This document shows positions 1,341 to 56,800 of a DNA stretch of 64,000 bases, piece after piece. Position numbers and translations under genes: made by a program. Within the stretch, counting starts at the first letter, position 1. Each line of letters starts with the position of its first letter. Source of the stretch: Diplonema japonicum (taxonomy: Eukaryota; Protista; Euglenozoa: Diplonemea); contig OZ025650.1 of assembly GCA_964019335.1 (NCBI GenBank), forward strand, positions 682,001-746,000, written 5' to 3'. Under the pieces are notes generated by a model. It did no database searches. It saw only the letters and a list, made by a program, of their open reading frames with translations, and was not told the DNA's origin.

Positions 1341-2028
1341 TTTTTTTTTTTCTTTTTTTTTTTCCATCCGACAATGGGAAGGTGAGAAAAAAAAAAAAAA
1401 AAGAAAGGGAGGGGTGAAAAAAAAGTGTCTTGGTTTTTTTTAAGTGTTTATTTTTTTTTTTTCCAGTTTTAATTTTATTTTTCGTGTGTGGTCTTTCCCT
1501 CTTTTTTTTTTCTCTTTGTTTTGGGTGAAATTTCTACCTTTTTTTTTTTCCCTCGTTTTTTTTCCCCCTTTCCTCTACTTTGCTATGTATCCTTGTTGCA
1601 ACCAGAGCTGAACCAGAGGGAGAAAAAAAAGAAAGTGTCAGTTGATAGCCCCCCGAGAGCCTACTGTGTAGGGAACCTATAAAAAAAAAGGAGGGGGGTA
1701 AGGGGAACCTGTTGTTGGGATGTACGCCTCGTTTGTGTATATATATTTTTTTTTTCGCACTCTGAATCATAAAAAAGAAAGAAATGGCAAAAACCCCTTT
1801 CTGGAAAACTTTTTTTTGAATAAGAGAGGGGAGGGGGGAGAGTGGAAGGGGGGGAGAGAAAAAAAATGTTTCATAAAAAAGAGAAGATAAAAAAAAAAAA
1901 CAAATCGTAACAACCATCTGTTTCCTCTTTCCTGTTTTTTCTTCTTCTTTCTTCTTCTTTTTCTTTTCTTTTCTTTCCCCTATTTTTATTCTCGAAGCGA
2001 ACAAAATAATAAGAAAAAAAAATAAAAA

Positions 2029-2307
2029 ATGTGCACCACGTACCAAGAGTTCAGCGACAAGCTCGACCGTCTGGATGCTGAGTTCAGCAAGAAGATGGAA
2101 GAGCAGAACAAGAAGTTCTTTGCTGACAAACCTGACGAGTCGACCCTTTCACCTGAGATGAAGGAGCACTACGACAAGTTCGAGAAAATGATCAAGGAGC
2201 ACACCGACAAGTTCAACAAGAAGATGAGGGACCACTCCGCCCACTTCAAGCAGAAGTTCCAGGAGCTCCTTGAGCAGCAGAAGAACGCCCAGTTCCCTGG
2301 TAAATAG
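2029..2307 (+). CDS. KMP11: kinetoplastid membrane protein 11
   Basis: 92 aa, MCTTYQEFSDKLDRLDAEFSKKMEEQNKKFFADKPDESTLSPEMKEHYDKFEKMIKEHTDKFNKKM...AQFPGK; matches the highly conserved euglenozoan KMP-11. Confidence 0.96.
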   Translation: MCTTYQEFSDKLDRLDAEFSKKMEEQNKKFFADKPDESTLSPEMKEHYDKFEKMIKEHTDKFNKKMRDHSAHFKQKFQELLEQQKNAQFPGK

Positions 2308-5844: not shown

Positions 5845-7914
5845 ATGCAGGCCTCTGTATTCGAGCGTTTGAAAACAGAGTATCAACAATTGGAGACATC
5901 CAGAGGGAAGGATGTGTACAAAGTGGACTTAGTAGAAGAAAACTTATGTGTGTGGGAGGTGCGCATGAAGTTTCAGGAAGGTACCAACATACAAAAAGAG
6001 CTGGATCACTATGGTGACAAGGTCTTGGCGGATAAGACGAAAAAGTGTTTGGTACTGAGGTTGTATTTTCCCGGAGACTACCCTGTGGCGCCTCCTGAGG
6101 TGAGGGTTGTGGAACCAAGGTTGGATTACTTTTGTGAAGTGGTAACCTTTGGGGGTGTGTTTAAGACAGTGCTTATCGGGCACGATTGGACAGAGAACCT
6201 TACAGCCCGCGACATCGTGAAGGACATACATCTCAGGCTAGCAATGTGCGAGGTGAAAATCGCACCAGCTTCCCGTTTGCTACGCCCTTACCACCCCAAG
6301 CACCCTTCGCAGGACCCGAACGCCTTCCGGTCATCATCCTTCCCAACTGTGAACAACTTCAACATGCAATTCAAGGTGATCCCTGCGAAGGAGGCTGCGA
6401 ATACTTTCCACATCTCCGGGCTTGACGAGTCGGATCGCATCTGCCTGCCGACCTCTCTGATGCCCAACCTGTACCATGAGCACACGAAGCTCCCTATTAT
6501 CTTTGAAATCGCAACGCAAGAAGGACGTGTCCGGCACATGGGTATCTCTGACAAGCACAGCTTTGTGGAGTACCTCCCAGCCAACACCGTCATCGTCCCC
6601 GACTGGATCCACGCGGAGCTCCGCATTGCGCACAAGTCGATGGATGTCAACGTGCGCTGCGTGCAGCTGAAGGCCGTCGAGCAGCTTCTCCTTCAACCAC
6701 ACGATGCGTCCTTCTACAAGGACATGGAGGCATGCTCGGGGATCGGCAACACACAAGCTGTTCTGAACCAAGCGATGAAGGACTCCAAGCTCACTGCGTT
6801 GACTGTGAACTCCGCTGTGAAGATTGAAGTCCCGAAGCCTGGAGGTGCGGTGTCTCATATGCTTGAAATCTTACACGTGTACCCACCCGGTGCGGGGAGG
6901 CTCATCTCGTCTGCCGCAGAGGACCAATGGGAGGTTAGCTTCAAAGTGGAATTCGCCCCTGCTCCTGATTTTGAAGACGAAGACGACTACAAAAAGAGAA
7001 TGAACGAAATCGAGACCAGAATGCTGACAAAGGAAAGAGCGAAGGCGCAGATCGCGTCGCAAACGGAGAACGCGCGTCGGGAGGAACTCATGAACACGGT
7101 GATGATGCAGCGGTGCGAGCTTGAGGACGAGATGCCGTCGGTGGGGAAACGAGGGGAGGTGGATGTGAAACTAACGCTTCCTGATGGGACGCAGATGGAC
7201 GGGAAGTTCAAGGAAGGTGCCAAGGTGTCCAGCATCACAGCCTTCATCATGATAAACGCCGACTGGGTGCTGAACGAGACAGTCGAGAGATCGACCATCA
7301 CACTGTCCACTGCATTCCCTAAGAAACAACTCTCTGTCGATGAGACGATTACCACCAAGGACCTTCACCGGCAACGAGTCATGGTTTCCCGCACTTCCGA
7401 CTCTGCACTAACCTCCGCTCCAGAACAGGCAGAACCCGTAGCACCGCAGTCGCCACAATCCCCAGAAACCATCACACGGTCGAACACAGGACGTCTGGAA
7501 GCAGCCTGGGAAAATGCTACTCAACAACAAAAAATTCGTCGGACAATGCGGTCCGAGGAGGCTTCTTTCAACCCTGCAGAGCATATAGACGACATGGTAC
7601 GCATAAAAGGGTGACGAGGGGAGGGAGGGGGACAAAATAATGGAATTAATTACGATTAAATTAAATACACACAGCCCCCCGCAGCAGCACCAACCCCTGA
7701 CACCCAGAGTGTTGCACAGGGAGACTTCGCCACCCAACCTACCCCGGAAGAAATGACTATAAGGGTATGAAAGGAGAACAATGAAGAAAATAAAAAGGTT
7801 CAAACGGTGTCGGAGATCACCGGAAACAGCGACCCTGAAATGATTCAAAATATTCTTGAGGCCTGTAGTTGGGATGTTGAAAGGGCAGTGTCCTTGTTAG
7901 TTGGTGGCTTGTAG
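5845..7914 (+). CDS. multidomain UBC-like (UBE2Q-type, catalytic Cys absent) - UFD1-like - UBX - UBA-like protein, 652 aa
   Basis: Exons 5845-7596, 7675-7764, 7798-7914 (introns 7597-7674, 7765-7797). UBC: ENLCVWEV...FPGDYPVAPPEVRVVEP...GGVFK. UFD1: DRICLPTSL...LPIIFEI...HMGI...VPDWI...LQPHDASF...VEFAPAPDF. UBX: VKLTLPDGTQMDGKF...LSTAFPKK. UBA-like: EITGNSDPEMIQNILEACSWDVERAV. Confidence 0.8.
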
Positions 7915-9978: not shown

Positions 9979-10236
9979 CAGAAATGCCCCCCATTATGGT
10001 AGGCACGCCGTTCGTTTCCTATCGCAGTGAATTTTTACTTGTTTTATAAAAAAATGTTGATAACGAGATGTGTAGAGAAAGTTTTTTTTTTTTTTTTTTT
10101 TTTATAGAACGTGTGTCTTTTTTTTTTTTTTTTTCTTTTTTTTTTTTTTCAATTTTTTTTTTCTTACGGTTTTATTGAGAAAAAAGAAAAGGAAAGGAAG
10201 GAGGGGGGTAACAAGAAGAAAAAAAAGGGGGAAACC

Positions 10237-11061
10237 ATGACGACGAAGGGTGTGGTGAAGGTCTGGAATGTGGCGAAGGGGTACGGGTTCTTGAAAGCAG
10301 AGGACGGGACAGAGGCGTTTGTTCACTTTTCGACGCTGCCCGGCCCGGGTTTGGTGGAGGGCGAGGAGGTCGTTTTCGACATCAAAGAGGAAGGTGTCTC
10401 CTCGAAGGGGAACAAGAAAAAGGTCGCGCTGAACATATCGGGTGCCGGTGTGCTATCTGAGCAGAGCGGGACGGGACCCTTCTCTGGGACGGTGAAGCTA
10501 TGGGTCTCAGGGAGGTCGATGGGGATTATCTTATCGAACGAGGGAGAAGAGATCCATGTCCACTCCTCCGCCTTCGGGGGAGGATCCTTGGCTGTGGGGA
10601 AACCTGTCACGTTTGATGTCCGAAAGGAAGTCCACATCAAGTCCAAAAAGAAGATTGCATCAAACGTCCAGGGGGAAGGTGTTGTCAAAATCGGCCAACA
10701 CCAGGGCACCATCAAGGCTTGGATCGGCGGCAAGGGCTACGGTTTCGCAGAACTTGAAGACGGAACAGAAGTCTACATCCACCGGTCAGAACTATCAGAT
10801 GGGCACTGCCTCTCCGGCAAGACGGTGTACTTCGATATTGAAATACAGGAACACGCATCTGGCCGAAAGCTCGCCAAAAACGTAACCGGTCCCGGTGTGC
10901 GCCCAGGCTCTGCTGTTGTCCTTGGAAAAGGTTTCAAAGGAGGCAACAAAGGTGGTCACAAAGGAGGACAGAAAGGCGGGAAAGGCTCAAAGGGCGCCCG
11001 AAAAGGCGGGAAAGGCTCGAAGTCCGGTAAAAAAAGCAAGAAGCCCGATGCTACAAAGTAA
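10237..11061 (+). CDS. triple cold-shock-domain protein with Gly/Lys-rich tail (paralog 1, intronless)
   Basis: ATG at 10237 (MTTKGVVKVWNVAKGYGFL...AFVHFS). Three CSDs with RNP1/RNP2-like motifs; GGKG repeats at the C-terminus. Confidence 0.9.
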   Translation: MTTKGVVKVWNVAKGYGFLKAEDGTEAFVHFSTLPGPGLVEGEEVVFDIKEEGVSSKGNKKKVALNISGAGVLSEQSGTGPFSGTVKLWVSGRSMGIILSNEGEEIHVHSSAFGGGSLAVGKPVTFDVRKEVHIKSKKKIASNVQGEGVVKIGQHQGTIKAWIGGKGYGFAELEDGTEVYIHRSELSDGHCLSGKTVYFDIEIQEHASGRKLAKNVTGPGVRPGSAVVLGKGFKGGNKGGHKGGQKGGKGSKGARKGGKGSKSGKKSKKPDATK

Positions 11062-11533
11062 GTAAAGAAAAAAAAAAGAAGGAACCAAAAAAAAAAAGTG
11101 TGTGTTTATATGGGGTGACATGAAGAAAGAGGAAAAGGAAGAAGAAAAGTAAAGACAGATGGGGGGGAACAAAAAAAGAAAAGAAAAAGAAAAAGAAAAA
11201 TAAAAAAAAATAAAAATGCAACAAAAAAGAAAAAAAATATAAAAAGTAGCTTCACGTAGATATTAACAACTTTCCCCATGTTTTCCCACACACACACACA
11301 CCCCACTGTCCCTGCTCGGTTAGTTAAGGAAAGAAAAATAAGGGAGTTACCCGCTCTCCCTTCTTCACCTTTTCTTTTTCTCCTTTCTTTTCTTCCCTTT
11401 TCTTCTTATTTTAAGAAATTAAGAAGGTGGGAATTGTAACACCCCCCCGACACCCCCCCACCTCTTCCGGCCAAGGATTATTTGGCTTTGCAAATCTATG
11501 TGAGGAGAAGCAATGATTTATACTTTTTTAAAT

Positions 11534-13490
11534 GGGTAAAATTCAAAATAGGGGTACAGAATTTAGCCCTGGATTGCCCTGATGTCTTTCCACGCCCTCC
11601 CGAGGTGTTTCTGGGTGGTTTTCGCCATCACAGACCCCCTAGGAACCAAGTGGGGGGTGGGAGAACCACTAAAATGGGTGAATACACTTTTCCCCCCCCT
11701 ATTTTTTTTGCTCATGAAACAGTACGGACAGGAGATCGTCAAATGGCTAGGGCAGCTCAAGTGGTACCGGGGCCCGAGGAGAACAACGGTCACGACAATA
11801 GAGCTTGCGCTAGACTTCGAGAACAGCACAATGAAGTCGCTGGTGGGTGAACGTGGAGACTGACACTAATAGGTAAAAAGGCGAGACGGCTGCATGGCCT
11901 GCTGGTGAGGCTGCAGGAAGGCTGGCAGGACGCGCGGATAAGGAGGAAGGTCAGGGGACACAGAGCCATACCGGCGGAGCAACGGCGGAACCACGGCCTG
12001 AGGACCATAGGGGGGAGAAAGGTCTTGGGCTGGGACAGAAGACCGCTGCACGTCTCGGAACAGACGAAGAAGGACCTCCAGAAACTGAGACAGCAGTGGC
12101 AGAAGGAGCGGGTGAGCGCCATGAGGGAGCGGGCTCAGCCCAAAAAGGAAAGACCGAAGCCGCTGAAGGGAGATAGGGGCAGGTAGAAGAACAAGACAGG
12201 ACGTCCCAGATCAGGGATTTCCTTTTACCTCTTTAATTTTTTTTGCTTTTTTTGTAGTAGTGGTTTTTAAGTCCATTTGAATGGCAGTTGTAGAAGAGAT
12301 TCCGGCTACGACTCTTTGATAGTCGCTGATGGTGAGGATGGATGTGTGGCGCACATGGGACATGACAGTTCTGGAGACCACCCCGAAGTGTGAGTCACAT
12401 TCGTTTTTTCCGTGTCGGCCCGGAAAGAAATTAAAGAAACGGGTTCGGGAATGGAGAAGGAAAAAGGATGCGACCTGGCTTTGAAAGTGTTTCCCAGAGT
12501 CGCACCATATGTTCAAACTTCATAATTTGAGCTTCGTTTTGAACAGGTCCTCTTTCATTAAGGTTTCAAAACAGCTGATGACAACAGGACTGTCTTGGTT
12601 GAGGGACCTTAATAAGAAGTCAAAGTGATGGACTTTTGTTTCCTCGCCTTCTAAATAATGGGCAGTGAAACCCAGAAATGCGAACCCAGCTTGATTATAA
12701 AAATCTTGGTTCGGCTGTTCCACCCTCATCGGGATTTTGGGCTTCTCCACACTGAGGACGATCAGCTCACCCTCTGGTCCGTTCGCTAAATGGGGTTACT
12801 ATACTCAGCTGCAAGTCTTGCAGGCCGTGGTGTGTTGCACCTTGTTTGCGATTGTTTTCAGACGGACTTTCATTAGCAGGACTTGCCGGGCTTGACTCTG
12901 TTGACGACACAGAACCTTCTCGAGACAATGCGCAACCTTCTGTTGTGTGGCTGCACTTGAAGCACCTGAACCTCTTTCCAGCCTTTCTTAAGAGTGTTGT
13001 TCTTAATATGCTGCAGAAACAAATTTAAACTCGATTTGTCCAGTTTCCATGTCTTACGTAACTCCTCAATCTCCTCTGTTTTCAAGCTGCAAAACTGGCG
13101 CTTTTGTACCTGAGTTTTGGCCATAAACCGCTCCCCTTCCAGGATTGCAAAGTCGATTTTAGACTTGTTTTCAAGGGTCCCATGGGGTGGTGTTTGTGGT
13201 GGTTCGGTGTTTTTGGGGTAAAATATGGTGTTTTGACATGCAACATGTCAAAAGGACGGTGTTCTGAGCCCTGTCATACAGGGGGTGTCAGGGGTTTCCA
13301 GTTCTTTTTCTGATTCATAAAATGACCCCCCTGGGGTGAGGAAATGGCATGTTTCACACCCTACGACCTCTGGGTACAACCACAGGGTGGTTTTGGTGAC
13401 AACCGTGAGGTGTTCTTCCTCACCTTAGGTCATTTTATGGCCAAATCCAAAAAAGGGCTAAATTCTGTACCCCTATTTTGAATTTTACCC
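11534..13490 (-). mobile_element. decayed TIR DNA transposon, Sola-like (DDD transposase), 1957 bp
   Basis: Perfect 37-bp TIRs GGGTAAAATTCAAAATAGGGGTACAGAATTTAGCCCT at 11534-11570 and 13454-13490. 4-bp TSD AAAT at 11530-11533 and 13491-13494. Minus-strand fragments include IWCDSGKHF and FFPGRHGKNECDSHFG. The superfamily call is inferred from the AWWT-type TSD and these motifs. Confidence 0.8.
12211..13124 (-). pseudogene. disrupted transposase of the TIR element
   Basis: ORF pieces 13124-12873, 12750-12520 and 12516-12211. There is an in-frame TGA at 12522-12520 and a frame change between the first two pieces. Confidence 0.7.
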
Positions 13491-13972
13491 AAATAATAAT
13501 ATATAAAAAAAAAAACATTTAGTGTAACCATTAACAATTCGTTTTGCTTCTTCTTTTTTATTTTTTTTTTTACTCCCCCAAAAGTCTTAGAAAATGAAGT
13601 GAAATAAAATAAAGTAGAATGAAAACGGAACGGAGAAACAGGTGGGATGTTACAGTTGAGTGCCTTCTTCCGTTTTTGTTCTAGGTTATTTTATACATGG
13701 TTTTCCAAATCCCCCCCCCCCCCTTTCCTGTATTGTGTTCCCTCTCTATTGTCCCCCCTCCATTTTTTAAACCTCATCCTCTGTTGCCCCCCACCCTCCA
13801 ACTTCCCTTTGCCACTTGTTCCTGTTTTTTTTTTTTTTTTTTTTTTTTTTCTTCTTACCTCCGATTATTCTTCCTCATGGGGGGTAAGAAATATCTTAAT
13901 TGTTATACAGACACCCCACACACTGCTGCACGCCAGTGCCCTTCCCACCCCTCCCTCCCTCCCTCCCCCTCA

Positions 13973-15147
13973 ATGACGACCGAAGGGAAGGTGAAAAGCT
14001 GGAACCTCGCGAGGGGCTTCGGGTTTGTGGTGAACAACGATGGAGAGGATGAAGCGTTCGTGCACACGAGCAACATCGACGGCGGTGTCCTGATCGAAGG
14101 GAAGGTGGTCACATATGACACAAAGCCATCCGAGAGGAAGGTGAAGGGGGAAAGCAAGCTGGTGGCATACAACCTAGGCGGTGAAGGGTTCAAACCCAAG
14201 TCAGGCGTGAGAGGTCAACTCTCCGGCGTCGTTAAATCTTGGAAACACGGGAAACAGATGGGGTTCATAAAGGGTGACGACGGTGAGGTATGCATTGTCC
14301 CCTTTCCTTCAACCACCCTCAGGAAGTCTATGTACACGCGACCTCCTTCGGAGGAGGTTGTTTGAGAGAAGGCGCTCAAGTCTATTATGACTCTGAAGAT
14401 GTTAAGCATAAATCCCACCGAAAAGCTGCTGTGAATGTCTCAGGCGAAGGCGTCATCAAGGGCTCCATGAGCGGGTACGTCAAACGCTGGATTGCCGACA
14501 GGGGCTTTGGTTTCATTGAAGCGTCCGACGGCTGCCAGGTGTACGTGCACTGCAGCAGTATCTCCGACGGGCATCTTGTCGAAGGCAAAGAGGTTTACTT
14601 CAACATCACCGAAGAACAGTCAAAGAACGGCGACAAATTAGCCACACGAAAGGTTGGAATGGATCTCTCTGGCCCTGGTGTGAAAGACGGCCCCCCAATG
14701 CCAGGTTACCAACCTATGCAATACGACAGCGGGAAAGGCTCTTCCCACACACCTTACCAAGGCAAAGGCAACAAGGGAGGTAACAATCATGGCGGTGGTA
14801 AAGGAGGCAAGAACCAGGGTGGTGGTGGTGGCGGCGGTGGTGGTGGCGGTTACAACTCATATAACACATATAATCAGCAGTATTCACAGGGGTATGGTTA
14901 TGGGTATGGTGGAGCACCGGACCCATACTCATATGGCTACGGTTACGGGGGGCCATCATACCAGAAAGGCGGCGGAAAAGGAGGACATTACCACCACCAC
15001 CACCACCACAATCATCACCATAACCATCACCATCATCACCAACACCAAGGTGGTGGTGGTGGTGGCGGCGGTGGTTACCACCATGGTGGCCAGGGCGGGA
15101 AAGGAGGTTACAAGGGTGGCAAGGGTCACAAGTCTGGCAGATACTAA
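13973..15147 (+). CDS. triple cold-shock-domain protein with Gly/Tyr/His-rich low-complexity tail (paralog 2)
   Basis: Exons 13973-14287 and 14323-15147. The intron 14288-14322 restores DGE|EVYVH. Three CSDs; polyG, YGY and polyH tail. Confidence 0.9.
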
Positions 15148-16770
15148 ATATAAGGGGGTAAGGAAACAAAAAAGAAAAAAAAAAGGGGGTAATATGTTTT
15201 TTTTTTTCTTTTTTTTTTCAGGGAAAGAGAGAGAAAAAAAGGGGAGGGATGGGGAAAACATTCAGAAGAAAAAGTGTCAAATTTGTTTTTTTTTAATTTT
15301 CACACTCAAAAAAAAAAAATACCAGCGGGGGAAAACTGTGTTCCCTCCCCATATTTTATGTATTGTGTTTCTTTACCACCCCCCCCCCCACCCCAATATT
15401 GTTCTTGTTCCTTTTTTAAAAGAACAAAAAAGAAAGCGAACACCCTCCCCATACATCCACCCGTTTTCTATATGAGAAAAAAACCTTTAAAAAAAAGAGA
15501 TTTCACCTGAAAAAAAAATGTTCCATAATATAAAAAAGGCGGTCGGGGGGATAGGATCTGCCCAGTTTTTTTTTCTTGTTTTTTTTTTATTCCCTCATTT
15601 TCTTCCAGGGGCAGCGTGTTTGGGGAAAAGTGTGAACTCATAATACTCTGAAATAAAAGAAAAAGGAAAAAAAAAGAAAAGAACAAAGTAGTCGAATATT
15701 AAAAAAAACAAAAAAAAAACATTGAAAAACCCTTTCCTTTTTATTTTTCTCTTAACTTCCTTTTATTTTTCTCTGCTCCCTTTCTTGCGAAAATAATACC
15801 CCCCCCCCCCACCTTTGTTTCCTGTTGACTTACACAAAAGTTATTTTTTTATTTATTGTTTCTCCTTTTTTTATTTGCTTAAGGCTACACTTCCCCCACC
15901 CCACCCACCCTCTTTTTTTGCTAAATAAAGAAGAAGAAAAAAAAACCCGCAATTTTGTTAATGTTTCATATCTTAAAAGTGTGTCAACAAGGGGGGGGGG
16001 GGGGGGGTGGATAGGTTTAATAAAAATCTAACAAAGCGTAAAAAAAAAAAATTAAATTCTGGACACGTTCTTCGAAAACCACCATTCAATTCTCTCTCTT
16101 TTTTTTGTTGCACAGCTAAAAGAACCAATAGCATTAGAGACCCGAGACATTAAAGTTTTGCAAAGAAGCGAAGGGGGGGAAAAAGGTGAGAGGGAGGGGG
16201 ACAAAAAAACTTTTTGTTGTTACACAGAAGGGCTAAAGAGACTATATTTTTTAAAGGAAGAACGAAGGGGGCGGGGGGGGGGGGGACATAATAGTTATAC
16301 GTTTCTAAACTTTTTTTAAAATGAAGAATAAAAAAAAAACTTGCTCCAAAACAACGCAATACCAATTAATTAAAAAAAAAATGTAGCCCTCTTCTCCACT
16401 ACACCCCTCACACCTGGGTTCTTACATGGGCAGGGGAATGGGAAATAAAAACAAGGGCAAATCCATGACGGCTTTCCAGTACCTTTTCCGTCCGCCTTTT
16501 CCCTCTTTTTTTTAAAAAAAAAACCCCCCCTCCGCAGTATTCGATATTGCCCTGTTTTTTTTTTCTTCCCCTTCGTTCAAACATTTTTTTTTAAAAAAAA
16601 GGACATGGCATCCCACACAACCCCCCTATTCCCCCTTTTTTAACACGTTATTTTTTTTTTTTCCCGCCCCCCTGCCTCTTTTCCCCTCCCCCTCTTTTTT
16701 TATTCCCCGACTCCTCATTTCAAAAAAAAAAAAGAAGAGAAACAAAAAAGGAAGAGGGGGGTATAAAAAA

Positions 16771-17568
16771 ATGTCCACGACAGGCAAAGTTGTTTCTTGG
16801 AACACAGCGAAAGGGTTCGGGTTTGTGCAGAATGAGGAGGGGGAGGCGGCATATGTGCATTCTTCATTCATAGATGGGGGCTCGCTAGTGGTAGGGGAGC
16901 AAGTGGCGTATGACGTGGAAGAATCGTCAAGGAAGGGGAAGAAGCTCGTGGCAGCGCAGATCAGCGGCGCAGGCGTATTGTCCCGACTTCCAGGGAAGCA
17001 AACAGGCACTGTGAAATCCTGGAATGTATCAAACAGCATAGGGTTCATAAAAACTGACGACGAGGAAGTATGAGTTTCAAAAAAAAAAAAAGAAAAAAAA
17101 AAGGAAATCTACGTGCACCGTTCTGCGGTTGGTGGTGGCAACCTCGAAGTTGGAAAGACCGTTCAATTTAACACAGAAGACGTCAGCCACAAATCGAAAC
17201 GTTTGGTCGCAGTTCACGTAACAGGGGAAGCTGTTCTCCCCATCGGCGAGCACAGTGGTATTGTGAAAAAATGGATCCACCAAAGCAAGGGAGGCGGCTA
17301 TGGATTCATTGAACCAGACACGGCAGAGGGGGACTCAGAGAAGCAAGAAATTTTCGTGCACTCCTCAGAGCTATCTGGCGGTGCGCTGTATACCAACAAG
17401 CAGGTATTTTACGATGAATCTGAAAAGGACCATCCCTCCGGTCGCAAAATCGCCACCAATCTTTCTGGCCCAGCCTTAAACGCCCTCTCTACAAAATTCT
17501 ACGGAAAAGGAAAAGGACACGGCCGTGGTGGGAGAGGCGGGCGTGGTGGCCGCGGTCGTACACAGTAG
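16771..17568 (+). CDS. triple cold-shock-domain protein with RGG tail (paralog 3)
   Basis: Exons 16771-17067 and 17104-17568. The intron 17068-17103 (GTATGAG...poly(A)...AAG) restores DEE|EIYVH. Ends GRGGRGGRGGRGRTQ. Confidence 0.9.
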
Positions 17569-25848: not shown

Positions 25849-26175
25849 AAGAAAATGAAATAGAAAAAAGGGAGGGAAAAAAAAAATAGAAAGGGCGGTT
25901 TTTTTTTTTTTTTCTTTTTTTTCTTTCTGTGTCTCTCGCTTTCCCCTCCCCTTTTTTTTCCCTCTCTTTTGTGCCTGTTGTAAACCTCTTAAAGCGGGGG
26001 AACATTATATCAGGGACAAAATTAGAAGGGAAAAAAAAAGGGGGGTTTTACAGAATCCTCCCCCCCCCTTTTTTTTCTTCACACGCTCATGGTTCTTTGT
26101 TTTTTAAAAAAAAAGATTCTTTGGAAAAATAAAAAAAATTAAAAAAAAAGAGGGAGAAAGAGAAGGCGCGAACCC

Positions 26176-27264
26176 ATGCCGATCTACCCTGCCCGCCACT
26201 GGACAAGGCTCAATGCCAAGTACATACAATGTGATGTTTGTCCGAATTTTTGCAAATTGAAAGAAGGGAAGCGGGGCCGGTGTTATGTGAGGGGGAACGA
26301 AGCCGGCAGGATGGCACTCTACACTGATGGAAAGACAAGTGGGGTCTGTGTGGACCCGATTGAGAAAAAACCTCTGAACCACTTCTTGCCCGGGACGAGG
26401 GTGCTGAGCTTCGGGACGATTGGGTGCAACCTGAGCTGCAAGTTCTGTCAAAACTGGCATATATCCCACTCGAAAGAAGACGACAAGCTCTACCAGGAAG
26501 TCACTCCCGAGTCGCTGGTGAAGGCAGCAAAGCGTCACAAATGCGAATCGATAGCCTTCACCTACAACGATCCTGTTATATTCATGGAGTTCGCATTGCA
26601 GGTTGCAAAGCAAGCTAGAGAAGAAAACATCAAGACAGTCGCAGTCACAGCAGGCTTCATGACGAAGGATGCAGGGAGGGAGTTCGCACAGGGTATTGAC
26701 GGCTTTAATGTCGATTTGAAGGCCTTTACGCAAGGGTTTTATTCAAAGGTTTGCAACGCCAAGCTGCAGCCTGTCTTAGACACGCTCCTGCTGATCAAGG
26801 AGGAAGGGAAATGGGTCGAGATCACGACTCTGCTGATCCCTGGTGAGAACGACTCCCCTGAGGAGATCCGAGGCCTGTCCCGATGGGTTGCTTCCAACCT
26901 CGGGAAGGATACTCCTGTTCACTTCACGGCCTTCCATCCTGATGGTGTCATGCTGACTACCCCTCGCACCCCTCCCTCGACCCTCATCTCTGCCGTGTCT
27001 ATCGCCCGTTCTGAAGGCCTTCTATATGTCTACACGGGGAACGTGCACTCGCCTCTCACCCAGTCCACCTTCTGCCCTTCATGCAACACGTGCCTCATAT
27101 CTCGAGATTGGCATGACACGCATATCAACCCGGAGGTCGTGTTCCCAGAACGAAACCATGGACACATGGGATGCCCTTCGTGCGGGGACACTATCCCTGG
27201 AGTCTTCTCCAAAAGGCAGTACAACGATGCCACTATCGACAGGCCCTTCAGGGTGATCTTGTGA
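26176..27264 (+). CDS. amrS: AmmeMemoRadiSam-system radical SAM enzyme (prokaryote-type, PflA-like superfamily)
   Basis: N-terminal QCDVCPNFCKLKEGKRGRCYVR, then VDPIEKKPLNHFLPG, the CX3CX2C motif GCNLSCKFCQNW, IAFTYNDP, NVDLKAF, HFTAFHPD, YVYTGNV and C-terminal CPSC...CPSC; intronless. Confidence 0.9.
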   Translation: MPIYPARHWTRLNAKYIQCDVCPNFCKLKEGKRGRCYVRGNEAGRMALYTDGKTSGVCVDPIEKKPLNHFLPGTRVLSFGTIGCNLSCKFCQNWHISHSKEDDKLYQEVTPESLVKAAKRHKCESIAFTYNDPVIFMEFALQVAKQAREENIKTVAVTAGFMTKDAGREFAQGIDGFNVDLKAFTQGFYSKVCNAKLQPVLDTLLLIKEEGKWVEITTLLIPGENDSPEEIRGLSRWVASNLGKDTPVHFTAFHPDGVMLTTPRTPPSTLISAVSIARSEGLLYVYTGNVHSPLTQSTFCPSCNTCLISRDWHDTHINPEVVFPERNHGHMGCPSCGDTIPGVFSKRQYNDATIDRPFRVIL

Positions 27265-35929: not shown

Positions 35930-36296
35930 CAAGCTGGTTAGAACGTTCTTTTTCATTTTTTTTTTGATGGCGTGCTCTCAATTGGAACACGCACACGTTG
36001 TTTACGCTTTTCTTTCAAAAAAAAAGGGGGGAAGGCGAGATGTATAAATTATGAATAGATATTTTTTTTTTTGTTAGAATGAAAACATTAAGTAGATTTT
36101 TTTTGTTTGCCTTTCATTTTTTTTTTGTTTGTAAAAGCCACTTTTTTTTTTTATTTATTCGCACCTGTTTTCTTATTTCCTTGTCCTCCGCTCCCCTTCT
36201 ACAGTATTCTTTTTCTGTTGTACATTCAGCGGAATAAAGCACGGCATACAGAAAAGAAAAAAAAAAAAAACGGAAAGAAAAAAAAAAAGCAAAAAG

Positions 36297-38201
36297 GTGG
36301 ATACCCCACACCGTGTTGCGGCTGCGTGTATCTTGGGCAGTGTAGGAATAGCTTGGGCGGCGACAGGTATCTACATAAAAATGACTGAGTTTGGTAAGGC
36401 TGTAAAGGAGGTTGACAAGATGATGGAAGACCTCAAAGAACTGGCAAAGAGAATAGGAGCAGCCTTGGATGGAGGCAAGGAAGAAGAGATAAACGATATT
36501 AAAGAGACACTTGAAGGCTGGACAGGGAACATTGGCGAAACGGGATCGCTAGGAATGAAGGCTGCAAAGTTCAAAAAGAAGGCAGAAGAGCCTGCAGAGT
36601 CCCGTCTTTACAGCGACAAGATGGTGGAGAAGGTTGAAAACTTTTTGAAAACGGTGGAGAAAATTCGTGAAGATCTGAAAACTACGGTATCTCCGATCAC
36701 AGAATGGATCGAGAACAAAGAGCATCTTGCAAGGGTCCTAGCTGAGATAGCGGAACGCCTTGAATACTGCCTTGCAGATGAAGCAGCTTGCAGAGCGAGC
36801 ATAGCATTCGAGACCTCCGAAGCCACTGCAAGACTCACGATCGAGAACAACCAGCTGGTAGACGTGAGCGCCGAACTGAATGTGCTGCAGAAAGCTCTGC
36901 GCGAACTCGAACGGAAGGCAGCTGCGAAAGAGCGAAAAAAACAGAAAAAACGAGAGCAGCAAGCGCAGCTTCGCGGGGACGCTGAAAAGCGCAAGGTGAG
37001 GGAAAAAGAGGAGCAACAGCAACAAATGGCCGAGGCTTTTGAAAAGGCCTTGAGGCAGGTTGAAAGGAAAGAGATAAGCACCCGTGTGACACTCACAGAA
37101 GAGGAACAAGACAACTCCCTGTCGATTCTGAACGCATTCTACAAAGTGATACGAAGGACGAAGTCACCCACGAAGCCAGGACGGGCCGGGCAGAGAAAAA
37201 GCCCACCAGGGGGCAGGGTGACACCGCCCCGTGGTGACCGTCCAAAATCTCCAAAATCCCGTTCGGGGAGAGACAAGCGGGCATCGAAGGGGCAGGGAGG
37301 TGCTGAGGGAGTCAGCGCTGACCTTTTCGACCTCCCCCCTGGCGCTCTTGACATGGTTTATGACGTGAAGGCAATCCCGAACACACCAAGCGTGCAGCTG
37401 TCGAACTCCCTCCACAACATCGAACTGACTGTGTACAAATGCTTGCTGTCAATACGCGACGTGGCAGAGCCGATACCTTTCGAGCTCCCTCCTGAGCTGC
37501 TGACCGACAGGAAAGCCAAGAAGCGGTACGAAAGCGGCAAAGTGCACCACACGGCCCAGTCATCCCTCGCAACCTACGATGAGGGCGGCATTGAGGGGGA
37601 CGACGACGATGAGGACGACCTGCTTGGGAACACCGACAGTGATGATGATGACCTCTTCATCGAAGACTACGAACAAGAAGAAGAAGAGGACAAAAGAGCC
37701 CTCCCTGAGAACCTGAATGTGTCCTTCCTCAAGAGGCTAACAGGAGGCTGCGTTGTGGTGATGATGTCAGTTGGGGGCTCCTTTGCAGGGGGCATCTTCA
37801 TGGGAGGGGACTGTATCGTACACACCACCTTCAGCAGGTACATCACAAGAAAGAAGCAAGGCGGCAGGCAGTCCAACCACGAAGGGCGCTCCGACACCAT
37901 GGGATCCCAACTAAGGAAGTCACACGAGACACGGTTCAAGGAGCTCATCTCTCAGCTGCTGCACACTTGGGCCCTCCCTTTGAATAATGCTTCTGCAATT
38001 TTCCTCCACGCCCCTAGCCCTGTGAACAGGATGCCTTTCTACTCGGTCACTCCTCTTCCGCCTTCAAACACAGTCGCGCATGGGTTGAAGAAAACAGACC
38101 CCAGAATACTGCCTGTGCCACTCACGACAAAGAAACCTACTTTTACTGAGGTACAGAAGGTGTACTCTTCCCTTGTCAGCTGCGTTTATAAGAGCTCATA
38201 A
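36297..38201 (+). CDS. Vms1/ANKZF1-like (VLRF1 domain) protein with coiled coil; start uncertain (GTG 36297 or ATG 36381)
   Basis: C-terminal GGSFAGGIF...HTTFSRYITRKKQGGRQS...MGSQLRKSHE...IFLHAP...DPRILPVPLTTKKPTFTEV matches the Vms1-like release factor domain. Confidence 0.82.
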   Translation: MDTPHRVAAACILGSVGIAWAATGIYIKMTEFGKAVKEVDKMMEDLKELAKRIGAALDGGKEEEINDIKETLEGWTGNIGETGSLGMKAAKFKKKAEEPAESRLYSDKMVEKVENFLKTVEKIREDLKTTVSPITEWIENKEHLARVLAEIAERLEYCLADEAACRASIAFETSEATARLTIENNQLVDVSAELNVLQKALRELERKAAAKERKKQKKREQQAQLRGDAEKRKVREKEEQQQQMAEAFEKALRQVERKEISTRVTLTEEEQDNSLSILNAFYKVIRRTKSPTKPGRAGQRKSPPGGRVTPPRGDRPKSPKSRSGRDKRASKGQGGAEGVSADLFDLPPGALDMVYDVKAIPNTPSVQLSNSLHNIELTVYKCLLSIRDVAEPIPFELPPELLTDRKAKKRYESGKVHHTAQSSLATYDEGGIEGDDDDEDDLLGNTDSDDDDLFIEDYEQEEEEDKRALPENLNVSFLKRLTGGCVVVMMSVGGSFAGGIFMGGDCIVHTTFSRYITRKKQGGRQSNHEGRSDTMGSQLRKSHETRFKELISQLLHTWALPLNNASAIFLHAPSPVNRMPFYSVTPLPPSNTVAHGLKKTDPRILPVPLTTKKPTFTEVQKVYSSLVSCVYKSS

Positions 38202-50845: not shown

Positions 50846-53800
50846 ATGCCCGCGGACAAACAGAGCTCAGGGGTATGGGATCTTGGAGGGAGGAGCATCT
50901 CACCGTCGAGGGGGGCCACGCCCCTGACTGGTGGGAGGTACTCAAGCAGGGGAGGAGAGAACCCTTTTCAAACAGGGCAAAACCGTAGGAGTGACGAAGG
51001 GATGCACGGGGGTATCGATCCCCTGAGGATGTCCGAAATGAATGACCGAGACCAACTGATGAAGTCACAACTGCGTGCGAAGCATCTCCTGATGGAGGAG
51101 CAGAACGACGAGATCTCAGCGTTGAAGTCCCACTGCGACATGTTGACGAGGGCTCTCGAGACAAAAGACGAGGAAGCTTCGATTCTTCAGCAGGCCATTG
51201 AACAAGTGAACAACAGCCATATGTCCGCCCTTGGTGGACAGACGCCACAACAGCTCCAAGATGAAATCCAAAGACTCGAGGCACTCTTACGAACATCCCA
51301 CACGCAAGGCAAGCGGCTCTACGACGATTACCAACGTCTGCAGCAGGATCACGAAGACCGTCTTTCCTATGTAGAAGAGGCAGAGGATAACATCCAGAAG
51401 CTCCAGGACGCACTTCAGAAAGCTATCGAGCAAAAGAACGCTATTCAACACCAGCCGCCCCCGCTTCCTGTTAAGACCCCTGCTGTCGAGGTCGTGCAAC
51501 CCCAAGTTGAACCTCCTGAGCAGCACCGTCCCTCTGAACCCCCTACCCTCCTCAGTTTCTCGCCTCCTCACAAAAGCAAAGGAGGTCCACGTGCTCCGCC
51601 CTCACTCTCATCGCGTCAAAAGACTGCTAACTCTGCCCCCAGCAGCCGTTCTTCGACGCCCACCGCGCAAAAGGGGAAACACGAGAACGCCGAGCTCCGC
51701 GACCTTCGCGAGAATATGAAACGTGCCACCCAGCAGCTCATGGACTACGCGGACAAGCTGCGGAAGCTGGAAGAAGAGAACGACAGACTTAGGCAGGAGC
51801 AGGACACAAACGAAGCGAGCATCAGGACCCTCCCTGTTACCCGACGAGACGCACCTCAGATGGATGATCTGGTGAGGAAGAACAACGATCTAATGCTAGA
51901 GCTCAAGAGGTTGAAGAAGAGGCGCACCACCCCCGACACGCTGGCAGAAAGCTACATTAAGGAACTAGAGGACGAGATCGAGAAATTGAAGACCATTGAT
52001 CATGGGAGGGTGAACCCTGCCCTCGTTGCGAGGAACGAAGACCTCACAAGAGAGAACAACAAGCTGCATGCTGAACTCCAAGCCCTTGCTGGTGGCAGCA
52101 GACGTGGCTCGATCACACCTACAATGGGCCATGTGGATCCACACAACCAAAAGCTAGCGCTTGCTAACGGTAAGGTCGCAGAACTTCTTGACGAGATCAG
52201 CAACCTGCAGATGAGGAGGCCAAGTCACAGCTCGCAAGGAACAGACTACACACCCGAGCTGCTTGACGAGGTGAACAGACTGCGTGGTGAGCTTGCTTCA
52301 TTGGGCCAGAATGACGAAAGGCTTGCAGCCGCCAACAACAGGATCAAGGAACTCTTCGATGAGAATGACAGGATTCATGCTGAGAACAAGGCGCTTAACA
52401 GAAATTTGGTCGAAACACCGACAGACGGCAGACGCGCTTCTGTCACCCCTACGAGAAGTCATGCAGTGCCACAAGACTATCGTCTTGAGGCAGCTGATGA
52501 AAAGATTCGTGAGCTGCTGGCTGAGATTGCAGACTTGCAGATGAGGAGATCAAGCCACGGCTCACGGGGGTCTGACTACACACCCGAACTAATTGACGAG
52601 GTGACCAGGTTACGCAACGAGCTTGCCTCCCTCGGCCAGAGCAATGCAAGGCTTGCAGCTGCCGATGATAAAATCAAGGAGCTTTTTGACAAGAACGACA
52701 TTCTCGCGGCGGAGAACAAGTCACTCAAGATGCCGCGGCCCCGTTTAGCTGCCGACGATCAGATCCGAGACGTGCTTGACGACGTCGAGAAGCTGCTTCT
52801 GAAGAACCCAGGGTCAAGGCGCAGTTCGCAAGGCGAGGACGACACTCCGCGGTTGCTCGACGAAGTGAACAGGCTGCGCAACGATATTGCAAAACTTCCG
52901 AAATCCAGCCCGCGTAACGGCACAAAGCTCAAGGAGCTTGAAGATGAAAACAGAAAACTCAAATCGCAACTGAGGTCTGACCCTTCTGGTCCACGGGACC
53001 GACTTGCTGCAGCTGATGCAAAGATAGAGGAGCTGCTCGACGATATAGCGAACTTAAAAAAGCCCAGCCATGTCCCACAAGGAATTGATTACACACCTCA
53101 ACTGCTTGATGAAGTTAACAGGCTACGTGGTGACCTGGCCAAGCTGTCGACAGCCGGTAACGATCCACAAGCCAATGCTAGATTGAAAGAACTGGCTGAT
53201 GAAAATAGTAAACTAAAGTCGCAGCTAAGATCTGCTCTCGGTGACACTGGTGACAAGGTGAAGGAACTGCTGGAGGACATCGCAAACTTAAGGAGACCCA
53301 GCAGCAAGTCCGAAGACACTCCTAAGCTTCTTGATGAAATCAACAAGCTGCGTGGTGAAGTTACAAAGGTGGCCAACCCTGTTGTTCCACAGGACCGTCG
53401 CCTTGTTGCAGCTGACAATAAAATAAGACAGCTGCTGGATGACATCGAAAATATGAAAAAACCCAGCTCTGGCCACAGCACACATGGTCCTGATTACACA
53501 CCTGAGTTGCTTGACGAAGTTAACAGGCTGCGTGACGAACTGGCCAAGCTAGGCCGCCCACGAAATGACGACAAAAAGCTAAATGTTCTGTCTGACGAAA
53601 ACAGCAGATTGAGGGCTGAGAATGCTGCCCTGCGCAGCGGACAAGTGCCAGGGGACGACCACAGTAGACGCCTTGCTGCAGCTGATGATAAGATACGAGA
53701 GCTTCTCGATGATATCGCCAACCTTAAGGCAAGACCAGAGTACGGATCGCAGGGGACCGACTATACGCCTGAGCTGCTTGACGAGGTGAACAGGCTACGT

Positions 53801-56800
53801 GGTGAGCTTGCTAGACTCGCGCCCACAGATGCCAGGATGAAAGACTTGGTCGACGAAGTTAACAGACTACGGGCAGAGAACCAGGCAATGATAGTACCTG
53901 CTGAGGAGCAAGACCATAGGCTCTTAATGGCTGACGACAAAATTAGAGAACTCCTTGACGAAGTGGCGAATTTGAAGGTGAAAAAAGCGAAGAAGGTGTA
54001 CCCTGATGAACTGGTGAAGGAGAACGACGACCTGCGCAGCGAGATTAAGAAGCTGAAGAATAGGAGATCCTCGCAGCCAGTCGAGCAGGCCTACGACCCG
54101 AGAGTAGGCAGCGCTGACGACAAGATAAGAGATCTCCTCGACGAAATCCGCAAGCTCAAAGCGAGCAGGCGCCCTAGCGACTCTGATGACAAAAAGGTTG
54201 TGGCACAAAACAAGAAACTCCGTGAGGAACTAACCAGGCTCATGGATCCGTACAGTCGGGTCGCCGTGGACCCCAAGCTTGAAAAGTATATAGGCGAGCT
54301 TAAAGCAGAAAACGAACAGCTGAGGAGGAACCGACCTGGTCCTGCTGGGAGGGACCAATACGTCAGGGACCTTGAGGACGAGATCGAGAAATTGAAGACC
54401 ATTGATCATGGGAGGGTGAACCCTGCCCTCGTTGCGAGGAACGAAGACCTCACAAGAGAGAACAACAAGCTGCATGCTGAACTCCAAGCCCTTGCTGGTG
54501 GCAGCAGACGTGGCTCGATCACACCTACAATGGGCCATGTGGATCCACACAACCAAAAGCTAGCGCTTGCTAACGGTAAGGTCGCAGAACTTCTTGACGA
54601 GATCAGCAACCTGCAGGTGAGGAGGCCAAGTCACAGCTCGCAAGGAACAGACTACACACCCGAGCTGCTTGACGAGGTGAACAGACTGCGTGGTGAGCTT
54701 GCTTCATTGGGCCAGAATGACGAAAGGCTTGCAGCCGCCAACAACAGGATCAAGGAACTCTTCGATGAGAATGACAGGATTCATGCTGAGAACAAGGCGC
54801 TTAACAGAAAACCGGTCGGAACACCAACAAGAAGCCACCCAGTGCCGCAGGATCACCGCCTCGAGGCTGCAGACGACAGAATCAGAGAACTGCTTCATGA
54901 AATTTCTGACTTGAAGATGAGGAGGCCCAGTCACAGTTCACAGGGTTCGGATAACGTGCCTGAGTTGCTCGACGAGGTGAACAGGCTGCGCAGGGAGCTT
55001 GCTAGACTGAACAGTCCGTCGAATGTCCAAACAGTTCCTCAAGACCGACGCGTGGAGGCTGCAGATCGCAAGATAAAGGAATTGCTGGATGACATTGCAG
55101 AACTGAAAAAGAGGAGGCCCAGTCACAGCTCGCAAGGGACCGACTACACTGAGTTGCTCGACGAGGTTGACAGGCTGCGTGGTGAGCTTGCTACCTTCAG
55201 CCAGAATGATAAGGGCCTCGCAAAAGCCAACAATAGGATCAAAGAGCTTTTTGATGAGAACGACAGGATTCATGCTGAGAACAAGGCACTCAGAGCAAGG
55301 AGCACCCCGACGCAGGTGCCGCAAGACCACCGTCTGCAGGCGGCAAACGATAGAATACAAGATCTGCTTGCAGAGATCGCGGACCTGAAGAGGAGGCCGA
55401 GCCACAGCTCGCAAACGTCAGAGTACATCCCCGACTTGCTTGATGAGGTGAATAGGTTGCGCAAGGAGCTTGCCAGGTTTTCAACCCCACACTCACGTAG
55501 CGGACGGACTCCTTCGAAAGTACACATGGAAGATGAGAACACGCTGAATGCTGAGATGCAGACACCAACGAGGGCTCAGGACATCCGCCTCATCGCAGCT
55601 GACGAAAAGATTCGTCAACTACTTGATGAAAACGCAAGTTTGAAGAGAAGGCCAAGCTACGGATCGCAAGGAACGAACCAGAGCACCCCTTCGAGGGGGC
55701 ACGAAGCGGAACGTCTTGCAGCAGCTGATGATAAGATCAGAGAGCTATTGAACGAGAATGCCAGACTGAAAGGAACAGCTGCCAAGCCTGTGAAGGACCA
55801 GCGAGAGGCCGAGACGTTGCGCAGAGAGAACGATCATCTAAGAAGCCTACTGAAGAAAAACTCGCAGCCGTGGCCTAGCAAGCATGAGCCCCTAGAGACA
55901 GACGAGGATGTGAGGAGGCTCCTTGACGAAGTCGACGAATTGAGGAAAAGGCTGATTAATAAGAACAGCGATCCTCCTGCGCACCTAGCAGAACAGAACA
56001 GAAGGCTGGCTGATGAGAACTTGCACCTGAGAAACCTCCTCCGGAGGCCTGAGAACGCTGGGAGCAGCGCACAAGCAGGGAAGTTCGTCGACGACACAGT
56101 GGACGAGCTTCACGGTGAAGTAGCTCACCTGAAGAATCTGCTTGCTGGAAGGAACTCTCAGGAAGTAAACCCTGCCTTGCTGGAGCGCAATAAGCAGCTA
56201 GTTAACGAGAACAACAACCTTCGCGAGCAGCTCTTGATGCAGCCGCGTCCATGGGGCAGTGAGGGCATGGTGAGGACGCAGGAGCTAGCTGAGATCGAGG
56301 ACCTGAAGAACAGACTGAGGCAGAACGAAATGTCCGACGGGCAGAAAATGAAAGATTTGGAGCTTGAGAACCAGATGTTGCGCAACAAGCTGATCGAAGG
56401 TCCACGAAGATCACATGAGGAGGGGTTGCAGTCCTTGATAGAACGGCTGCAAGAGGAGAACGCCGCACTGAGAAATGTTGGACCTTCGAGATCGTCTACT
56501 TACGCGTCTGATGTGCCTGCTTTACTTGATGAGATCAGTGAGCTGAGGGGGCTGTTGGAGGCGAGGGGGGACCACGCACCCCATCTTACAGAGCAAAATC
56601 GACAGCTTGCAGAGGAAAATACGCATTTAAGACAGATGCTGCAGAACCCACAGCGTACCTCTTCCGACGACTTCGGGAGGGTGCCGTCGGTGTCGGTAAA
56701 TGATGTCAACCCTGCTTTGCTAGAGAGGAACAGGCAGCTTGTGGACGAGAACAACATGCTGCGGGACACGTTGGGCTCGCCAAGGAGGTCGCAAAGTGTG

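What the first reader, a model, noticed from the sequence alone, without database searches (positions are those of the whole stretch)
5845..7914. Four-in-one Cdc48/p97 adaptor: pseudo-E2 + UFD1 + UBX + UBA
Seen: after splicing two introns, one 652-aa polypeptide carries four domains. These are a UBE2Q-like UBC domain in which GGxxC becomes GGVFK (no catalytic Cys), a UFD1 UT3-like domain, a UBX domain with the FPK loop, and a terminal UBA-like domain hidden in two small exons. Established: UFD1 and UBA bind ubiquitin, UBX docks on p97, and Cys-less UBC folds (UEV) act as ubiquitin or E3 binders. I know of no characterised protein with this architecture. Inference: a self-contained, possibly Npl4-independent substrate-recruitment module for a lineage-specific p97 pathway.
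Basis: partly seen in the sequence, partly recalled or inferred. Interest (0 to 1): 0.75.

Follow-up and report, generated by a model that had tools for sequence, protein, structure and literature searches.

The report
E2–Ufd1–helix–UBX–UBA fusion, likely p97 adaptor
This diplonemid (marine flagellate) gene is spliced into one 652-residue protein joining a ubiquitin-conjugating-enzyme fold without its catalytic cysteine, the ubiquitin-handling domain of Ufd1, a long helix, a UBX and a UBA domain; it likely acts as a pre-assembled adaptor for the p97/Cdc48 unfolding machine, and it belongs to an apparently undescribed protist family in which many dinoflagellate-like members keep the cysteine.

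Summary
Observation confirmed. The two-intron product equals a transcriptome protein of Diplonema japonicum letter for letter, and contigs skip both introns. All four domains are supported by Pfam, PDB profile and fold search. 'Lineage-specific' is wrong: 70 distinct E2+UT3 fusions were found, including euglenid, heterolobosean, dinoflagellate and stramenopile proteins; 26 of 70 keep the catalytic Cys, 0 of 14 in the diplonemid groups. Best reading: a Ufd1 paralogue whose p97/Npl4-binding tail is replaced by a FAF1/2-like helix-UBX brace in the same chain. Against full function: cleft residue E145 is N in 8 of 8 close orthologues and the UBX Arg is lost in 7 of 8. Npl4-independence is untested and disfavoured by 2026 papers. 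No description found in 8 literature searches. This scan noted the family before on other DNA (e1-674024, e1-561121, e1-9779627). New variant of a known kind; interest 0.5.

The parts
5845..7596 (+). Exon 1 (aa 1-584): E2-like, UT3, helix, UBX, linker
   Evidence: identical to P0001
5845..6270 (+). UBE2Q-type E2 fold (aa 1-142), no catalytic Cys
   Evidence: Pfam UQ_con E 8e-6; PDB 1zuo/2qgx E 3e-12/6e-12; Z 18.3, rmsd 1.6, 135 aligned
6151..6165 (+). GGVFK (aa 103-107) at the place of the UBE2Q catalytic-Cys motif
6271..6345 (+). E2-UT3 linker (aa 143-167), predicted ordered, near-invariant Y149, length conserved (median 54 between anchors)
6346..6960 (+). UFD1 UT3 domain (aa 168-372), both subdomains; M206, D236, L307, N308, S365 stand for yeast L55, E86, L144, E145, D191
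   Evidence: Z 18.6, rmsd 2.6, 176 aligned to 2yuj
6979..7131 (+). 51-residue charged helix (aa 379-429) between UT3 and UBX; spacer length conserved
7156..7392 (+). UBX domain (aa 438-516); FPK loop at 7315-7323; T444 where p47 has Arg
   Evidence: Pfam UBX E 1.2e-5 above cut-off; p47 E 0.011
7489..7563 (+). Short helix (aa 549-573) with an L-x-x-A-W pattern kept in 8 of 8 close orthologues; role unknown
7597..7674 (+). Intron 1, 78 nt, GT..AG, holds the 7612-7614 stop
7675..7764 (+). Exon 2 (aa 585-614): linker and start of first UBA helix
7765..7797 (+). Intron 2, 33 nt, GT..AG, in frame but with an internal stop
   Evidence: (run X1)
7798..7914 (+). Exon 3 (aa 615-652, TAG): UBA-like domain
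   Evidence: Pfam UBA_4 E 7e-8

Best explanation
The gene makes one spliced E2-like/UT3/helix/UBX/UBA protein that likely serves as a substrate-recruiting adaptor of the p97/Cdc48 unfoldase. Shown: the spliced product, the domains, the missing Cys, the absence of Ufd1's SHP-bearing tail, and a family across several protist groups. Predicted: residues 1-519 form one ordered unit. Inferred: the UBX docks on the p97 N-domain; the fixed-length helix holds the E2-UT3 head about 60-70 residues away, much as the FAF1/FAF2 helix-UBX braces UFD1's UT3 in human cells but here in one chain; the flexibly tethered UBA catches polyubiquitin and the UT3 ridge (M206, D236) binds a proximal ubiquitin weakly. 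The Cys-less E2 cannot form a ubiquitin thioester and would act as a structural or partner-binding surface that gives the adaptor its own clients. If it starts chain unfolding, it would still hand over to Npl4 on the same hexamer.
For: Domain calls (6, 15, 33, 86, 103). AlphaFold on a 63-sequence alignment: pLDDT 94.2, pTM 0.81 over 519 aa, with the lowest confidence at aa 351-370, the cleft strand that is extended only on ubiquitin binding in ctUT3 (bioRxiv 10.64898/2026.03.07.710261 section 8). UT3-to-UBX spacer median 78, range 67-90, 25 of 46 at 77-79, against 91-574 for UBX-to-UBA (n=25). FAF2's UT3-contacting motif (286-312) lies 50-76 residues before its UBX (362-445) (PMC13578712 sections 11, 13); here UT3 ends 68 and the helix starts 59 residues before the UBX. 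Faf1 helix-UBX alone stimulates unfolding (PMC13356908 section 8) and FAF-type adaptors partly rescue UFD1 E84A, E143A, D186A (bioRxiv 10.64898/2026.03.13.711538, passage), so a built-in brace could tolerate a weakened cleft. UBX loop Pro kept in 44 of 46 and beta-1 Arg/Lys in 34 of 46 family members. Ridge: L55->M 8 of 8, E86->D/E 6 of 8; cleft L144 8 of 8.
Against: No binding was tested, by bench or by complex prediction. Cleft E145 is N in 8 of 8 close orthologues and E in only 16 of 70 family members (6 of 7 stand-alone UFD1 controls have E); D191 is acidic in 1 of 8; human K139 is Q/E in 8 of 8; E145K, D191K, E143A and K139A are loss-of-function in the papers read. In 36 of 70 family members L55 is Ala, the strongest ridge mutant in yeast. 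The UBX beta-1 Arg is kept in only 1 of 8 close orthologues. The helix does not carry a recognisable FAF2 activation motif (by eye), and the model's contacts could not be inspected. 25 of 74 E2+UT3 proteins have no aligned UBX (some are fragments).
Confidence: 0.55

Rival explanations
1. It binds p97 through UBX, but its E2-UT3 head no longer handles ubiquitin: the head is a rigid recognition module for a specific client or partner, and ubiquitin is read only by the UBA (or not at all), as in p47/p37-type adaptors.
For: Ridge and cleft residues differ across most of the family; UBA is dispensable or moved in several members (Entosiphon and Willaertia proteins end after UBX); E2 surfaces are degenerate: RING-loop Phe in 0 of 8 vs 23 of 41 controls, UBE2Q His/Trp tail motif in 0 of 70 vs 15 of 41.
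Against: L144 (62 of 70) and an acidic D191 position (45 of 70) are kept family-wide, and the cleft strand is predicted in its apo form, which suggests the cleft is still used.
Confidence: 0.25
2. One reading: a self-contained initiator that loads polyubiquitinated substrates into p97 without Npl4.
For: No SHP box in 0 of 93 and no match to a UFD1-tail profile (best E 0.49 of 93); UBA, UT3 and UBX are all on one chain; UT3 alone can unfold a ubiquitin (bioRxiv 10.64898/2026.03.07.710261, abstract and section 12).
Against: Capture by Npl4 is rate-limiting and needed in yeast and human assays (same preprint section 12; PMC13356908 section 12); no UBX adaptor worked alone (bioRxiv 10.64898/2026.03.13.711538); the cleft needed for unfolding is altered here. 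Leishmania keeps canonical UFD1-NPL4 (PMC7403338, passages); diplonemid NPL4 was not checked.
Confidence: 0.1
3. The diplonemid copies are a decayed or inhibitory version: with E2 Cys, UT3 cleft Glu and UBX Arg all changed, they bind p97 weakly or not at all and act as a ubiquitin-chain scaffold or as a competitor of the canonical Ufd1-Npl4.
For: Three functional hallmarks are altered together on a long branch.
Against: The gene is under purifying selection (25 of 28 differences synonymous); the F/Y/M-P loop is kept in 8 of 8 and spacer length is 77-78 in 8 of 8; Leishmania p97 binders use variant GMPP/GFPP loops (PMC7403338, passages).
Confidence: 0.1

Closest known systems
UFD1/Ufd1 (Ufd1-Npl4 cofactor of p97/Cdc48)
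   Same: Complete UT3 domain (Z 18.6 to 2yuj); ridge and cleft positions alignable; L144 kept.
   Different: No UT6 tail with SHP boxes; E145->N, D191->S; fused to E2 fold, helix, UBX and UBA; fusion UT3s are separated from six stand-alone UFD1s in a UT3 tree (96).
FAF1 / FAF2 (UBA-UAS-helix-UBX accessory adaptors)
   Same: Long helix directly before a UBX; similar reach from UBX to UT3; a UBA on the same chain.
   Different: UT3 is covalently attached instead of bound in trans; helix about 51 aa against about 90; no UAS; no evident activation motif; UBA is C-terminal.
UBE2Q1/UBE2Q2 (non-canonical E2s)
   Same: Best sequence and fold match of the N-terminal domain.
   Different: No catalytic Cys in the diplonemid copies; Tyr343/His409/Trp414 triad (PMC10971424) absent in the whole family; no N-terminal extension here.
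UEV proteins (Mms2/UBE2V, TSG101) and RWD domains
   Same: E2 fold without catalytic Cys.
   Different: Derived independently from a UBE2Q-type E2 (TSG101 Z 11.3, Mms2 Z 13.4 against 18.3 for UBE2Q2); ubiquitin binding by this surface not tested.
p47/NSFL1C (UBA-SEP-UBX)
   Same: Closest solved UBX by sequence (E 0.011); UBA plus UBX adaptor logic.
   Different: No SEP domain or SHP boxes; beta-1 Arg replaced by Thr.

Membership tests
UFD1 orthologues | UT3 double-subdomain fold | tested here: met
UFD1 orthologues | UT6 tail with SHP boxes | tested here: not met
   SHP pattern 0 of 93 vs 4 of 9 controls; tail profile no hit; UT3 runs straight into the helix
UFD1 orthologues | Npl4-binding motif | tested here: inconclusive
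   my pattern also missed 9 of 9 controls
UFD1 orthologues | Ridge L55/E86 and cleft L144/E145/D191 (yeast numbers) | tested here: not met
   M, D, L, N, S in the window protein: ridge conservative, two cleft acids changed
UFD1 orthologues | Binds and unfolds K48-linked ubiquitin | not testable with these tools
   needs biochemistry
Active UBE2Q-type E2 | UBC fold of UBE2Q type | tested here: met
Active UBE2Q-type E2 | Catalytic Cys | tested here: not met
   0 of 8 close orthologues; 41 of 41 controls
Active UBE2Q-type E2 | Tyr343/His409/Trp414 triad | tested here: not met
   Tyr near -8 in 0 of 70, His..GlyTrp tail in 0 of 70; controls had them in only 5 of 41 and 15 of 41
UBX-domain p97 adaptors | UBX domain above Pfam cut-off | tested here: met
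   25.8 bits vs 21
UBX-domain p97 adaptors | R...FPR signature | tested here: inconclusive
   FPK loop present, beta-1 Arg is Thr; R/K in 34 of 46 family members; that this Arg is the signature Arg is recalled
UBX-domain p97 adaptors | Binds the p97 N-domain | not tested
   no eukaryotic p97 sequence was in hand and no complex job ran
FAF1/FAF2 (UBA-UAS-helix-UBX) | Long helix anchored on UBX | tested here: met
   H379-429
FAF1/FAF2 (UBA-UAS-helix-UBX) | UAS domain and N-terminal UBA | tested here: not met
   no such Pfam match; UBA is C-terminal
FAF1/FAF2 (UBA-UAS-helix-UBX) | Activation motif contacting UT3 in trans | tested here: inconclusive
   not evident by eye in 46 spacers; no FAF sequence was aligned

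The most novel reading that the evidence does not exclude
An old, undescribed protist family puts a ubiquitin-conjugating enzyme, Ufd1's ubiquitin-unfolding domain and a FAF1-type helix-UBX brace into one rigid chain, so that Cys-bearing members (17 of 21 in the dinoflagellate-containing clade, some with WWE or EF-hand sensors) would write or extend ubiquitin chains on p97 and pass them straight to the unfolding site, while diplonemids have turned the E2 into a pseudo-enzyme that selects clients. It would be a natural single-chain version of the UFD1-FAF1 initiation unit solved in 2026.
Probability: 0.25. Interest if true: 0.75.

Novelty: new variant of a known kind. Interest (0 to 1): 0.5.

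Why it matters
How p97 adaptors position UT3 to unfold the initiator ubiquitin was worked out only in 2026, with FAF1/FAF2 bracing UT3 in trans. A natural fusion with a fixed UT3-helix-UBX geometry is independent evolutionary support for that geometry and a ready single-chain reagent to ask whether a braced UT3 needs the UT6 tail or Npl4, and whether the cleft acids matter when braced. The Cys-bearing relatives raise the question of an E2 working on p97 itself. D. papillatum has an orthologue and genetic tools (search listing), so the tests are feasible. If UT3 proves inert, this is one more domain-shuffled UBX adaptor of modest interest.

Tried and rejected
Unspliced 589-aa ending at 7614 as the only product: rejected. 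Diplonemid-only family, as two word-indexed searches suggested (8 hits each): rejected by the full profile search. Pseudo-E2 as family trait: rejected. A replacement Cys in the E2 fold: none in more than 4 of 8 orthologues. VIM-like patterns in 6 of 70 (not the window protein), VBM and SHP in 0 of 70: treated as chance. A UIM reading of helix 549-573 was considered by eye; Pfam gave no UIM match at E<=0.5. ESM Atlas: one weak lead (0.75, UFD1+UBX cluster, mostly Chlorophyta) and one blank; leads only. No relative in viral or metagenome contigs. No whole genome is held, so canonical UFD1, NPL4 and p97 of this organism were not checked. No RNA holder is on record as RNA. The 5' end and spliced-leader site could not be seen. 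The E2-UT3 complex prediction never ran because the queue was full, so it gives no verdict. The careful tree did not finish; quick trees were used. Literature searches for the architecture found no description: 1 paper, listing only; 4; 0; 3 hold the terms, 2 listed; 4 VCP reviews, listings; 14, 12 listed; 2; 15 listed of 1,180, none naming Diplonema; the library lacks most subscription papers, and no supplements were read, where gene lists could name an orthologue.

Full report
Gene. The window is euglenozoan (KMP11 at 2026-2304), and the protein is 100% identical to a transcriptome protein filed as Diplonema japonicum, so the window is probably that species (inference). Exons 5845-7596, 7675-7764 and 7798-7914 give exactly that 652-aa protein. 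Contigs of two runs from other strains skip intron 1, one also intron 2, and two DNA holders skip neither (RNA status is the tool's guess). The first donor lies upstream of the 7612-7614 stop. Of 28 listed strain differences in exon 1, 25 are synonymous (22.5% expected).

Domains. Pfam gives UQ_con (26 bits, cut-off 27), UFD1_N1, UBX and UBA_4 (the last three above cut-off). A profile of 8 orthologues (39-69% identical) matches UBE2Q2/UBE2Q1 best and then UFD1. AlphaFold with those 8 rows gave pLDDT 68.8, pTM 0.42 for the full chain; with 63 rows and aa 1-519 it gave pLDDT 94.2, pTM 0.81. By a rough estimate of mine a freely moving 140-residue end would cap pTM near 0.73, so E2, UT3, helix and UBX are predicted in a defined arrangement; I could not see PAE or contacts, and long helices can be over-confident. 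Fold searches: UFD1 Z 18.6, UBE2Q2 entry Z 18.3, next best PEX1-N 15.3. The UBX is supported by Pfam and by p47 (E 0.011); in the fold list its region matched a beta-grasp chain (Z 9.8) and a p97-N/PUX5 chain.

Family. Word-indexed searches found only 8 diplonemid-type proteins. The profile search of 1.84 billion representatives found 832 hits at E<=1e-3 and 41 at 1e-30, of which 150 were listed. Of 158 proteins then held, 74 cover both the E2 and UT3 parts of the profile and 49 of these also the UBX part; I dropped 4 near-duplicates, leaving 70. Of 30 top new hits scanned with Pfam, 9 show all four families in the same order at E<=0.01. Of 20 hits looked up, 6 carried an organism: Sulcionema, Namystynia, Entosiphon, Willaertia, Gymnodinium, Platysulcus; one search added Effrenium and Durusdinium, labelled only 'UBC core domain-containing', 'uncharacterized' or 'UFD1 homolog'. 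Group names for these genera are my own knowledge. Most members are unnamed, so clade labels such as 'dinoflagellate-containing' rest on few names.

Catalytic Cys. All 41 stand-alone UBE2Q-like controls have Cys in one column. In the family 26 of 70 do: 0 of 8 close orthologues, 0 of 6 further diplonemid-group proteins, 17 of 21 in the Gymnodinium clade, 9 of 35 others; 17 of 19 further proteins show it by pattern. The label needs at least 10 changes on the quick tree (that count used 'Cys within two residues', 29 of 70), so the Cys was probably ancestral and lost repeatedly (inference). The Tyr/His/Trp triad that human UBE2Q1 needs for Ser/Thr discharge (PMC10971424, passages) is missing throughout, and the RING-loop Phe is rare, so even Cys-bearing members are not shown to be active.

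UT3 sites. Two 2026 preprints define a ridge (yeast L55, E86; human L53, E84) and a cleft (L144, E145, D191; human K139, E143, D186) needed to bind and unfold K48-linked ubiquitin (10.64898/2026.03.07.710261, abstract and sections 7, 8, 11, 12; 10.64898/2026.03.13.711538, passages). Against 1zc1 the window protein has M, D, L, N, S. Across 8 orthologues: M 8, D/E 6, L 8, N 8, acidic 1; K139 is Q/E in 8. Across 70: L55 is A in 36, E145 is E in 16, D191 acidic in 45, L144 L in 62. So the ridge is conservatively changed in diplonemids and the cleft is partly changed everywhere. This is the main evidence against simply copying Ufd1's function.

Brace. Human Faf1 anchors a long helix on its p97-bound UBX and braces UT3; helix-UBX suffices (PMC13356908, abstract and sections 8, 11, 12). 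FAF2's motif lies 50-76 residues before its UBX (PMC13578712, abstract and first parts of sections 11 and 13). Here UT3 ends 68 residues before the UBX, joined by a 51-residue helix, and the spacer is 67-90 (median 78; 25 of 46 at 77-79) while the UBX-UBA linker is 91-574 (the 46 include 8 close orthologues). The UT6 tail, whose role is to anchor UT3 to the ATPase, is absent. I infer that helix-UBX replaced UT6. FAF-type adaptors partly rescue weakened UT3 mutants, which would fit a drifting cleft. The same papers say Npl4 is still needed, so Npl4-independence is the less likely branch. The UBX loop is kept, but the beta-1 Arg is lost in 7 of 8 close orthologues while present as R/K in 34 of 46 overall, so p97 binding by the diplonemid copy may be weaker.

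History. Diplonemid copies group with the dinoflagellate-containing clade (SH-aLRT 99), not with the euglenid Entosiphon; holding the euglenozoan rows together is rejected (p-AU 1.7e-5, 22 rows, quick tree). The group was named after I had seen the first tree, and two of its rows are unnamed, so this is a lead: lateral transfer or hidden paralogy.

Novelty. Eight searches for the architecture found no description; the Leishmania VCP interactome passages (PMC7403338) and SELMA passages (PMC12412216, 12 of 13 shown) mention no such fusion. Supplements were not read. The scan's own notes record related proteins three times on other DNA; they are unchecked AI notes and not independent support, and my brace reading was noted before I saw them.

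Verdict. A real, conserved, spliced gene; a Cys-less, UBA-bearing member of a widespread undescribed protist E2-UT3-helix-UBX family; most likely a p97 adaptor with a built-in brace (0.55). Not a member of UFD1, UBE2Q or FAF1/2 proper; it likely works like a UFD1-FAF1 pair. New variant of a known kind; interest 0.5.

Noticed in passing
P0015, P0016, P0018, P0020, P0022, P0025, P0032: Members of the Gymnodinium clade carry N-terminal EF-hand and/or WWE domains ahead of the E2 (Cys kept in several), hinting at calcium- or poly-ADP-ribose-linked versions.
   Followed up: no
P0011, P0012 (Sulcionema), P0030, P0036: A second Cys-less diplonemid-group subfamily of about 950-1290 aa has a UBA before the E2 and, in three of four, a C-terminal CUE.
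   Followed up: partly
P0006, P0007 (ENA gene calls): Two genome-predicted orthologues end without UBA just after the conserved linker helix, probably because small 3' exons like those here were missed.
   Followed up: no
window 7765-7797: Intron 2 is only 33 nt and purine-rich up to its AG, with no pyrimidine tract.
   Followed up: no
window 36135-38201 +: ORF with a VLRF1 release-factor domain (E 1e-35); from recall the eukaryotic Vms1/ANKZF1 of this kind is itself a Cdc48 cofactor.
   Followed up: no
window 10108-17073 +: Three neighbouring cold-shock-domain genes with Gly-rich tails.
   Followed up: no
window 2026-2307 +: KMP11 gene (E 5e-52); the frame has a Cys-containing start that differs from a simple ATG start, so a 5' exon is likely.
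   Followed up: no
window 26143-27264 +: Radical SAM protein (E 8e-21), family not resolved.
   Followed up: no
window 50846-57244 +: 2132-aa open frame with only weak coiled-coil Pfam matches, likely a repeat-rich cytoskeletal protein.
   Followed up: no
whole window: All ORFs with Pfam matches lie on the + strand, as in the strand-clustered gene order of Euglenozoa (recalled).
   Followed up: no
tree: Diplonemid copies group with dinoflagellate-like copies rather than with the euglenid one; possible lateral transfer or hidden paralogy.
   Followed up: partly
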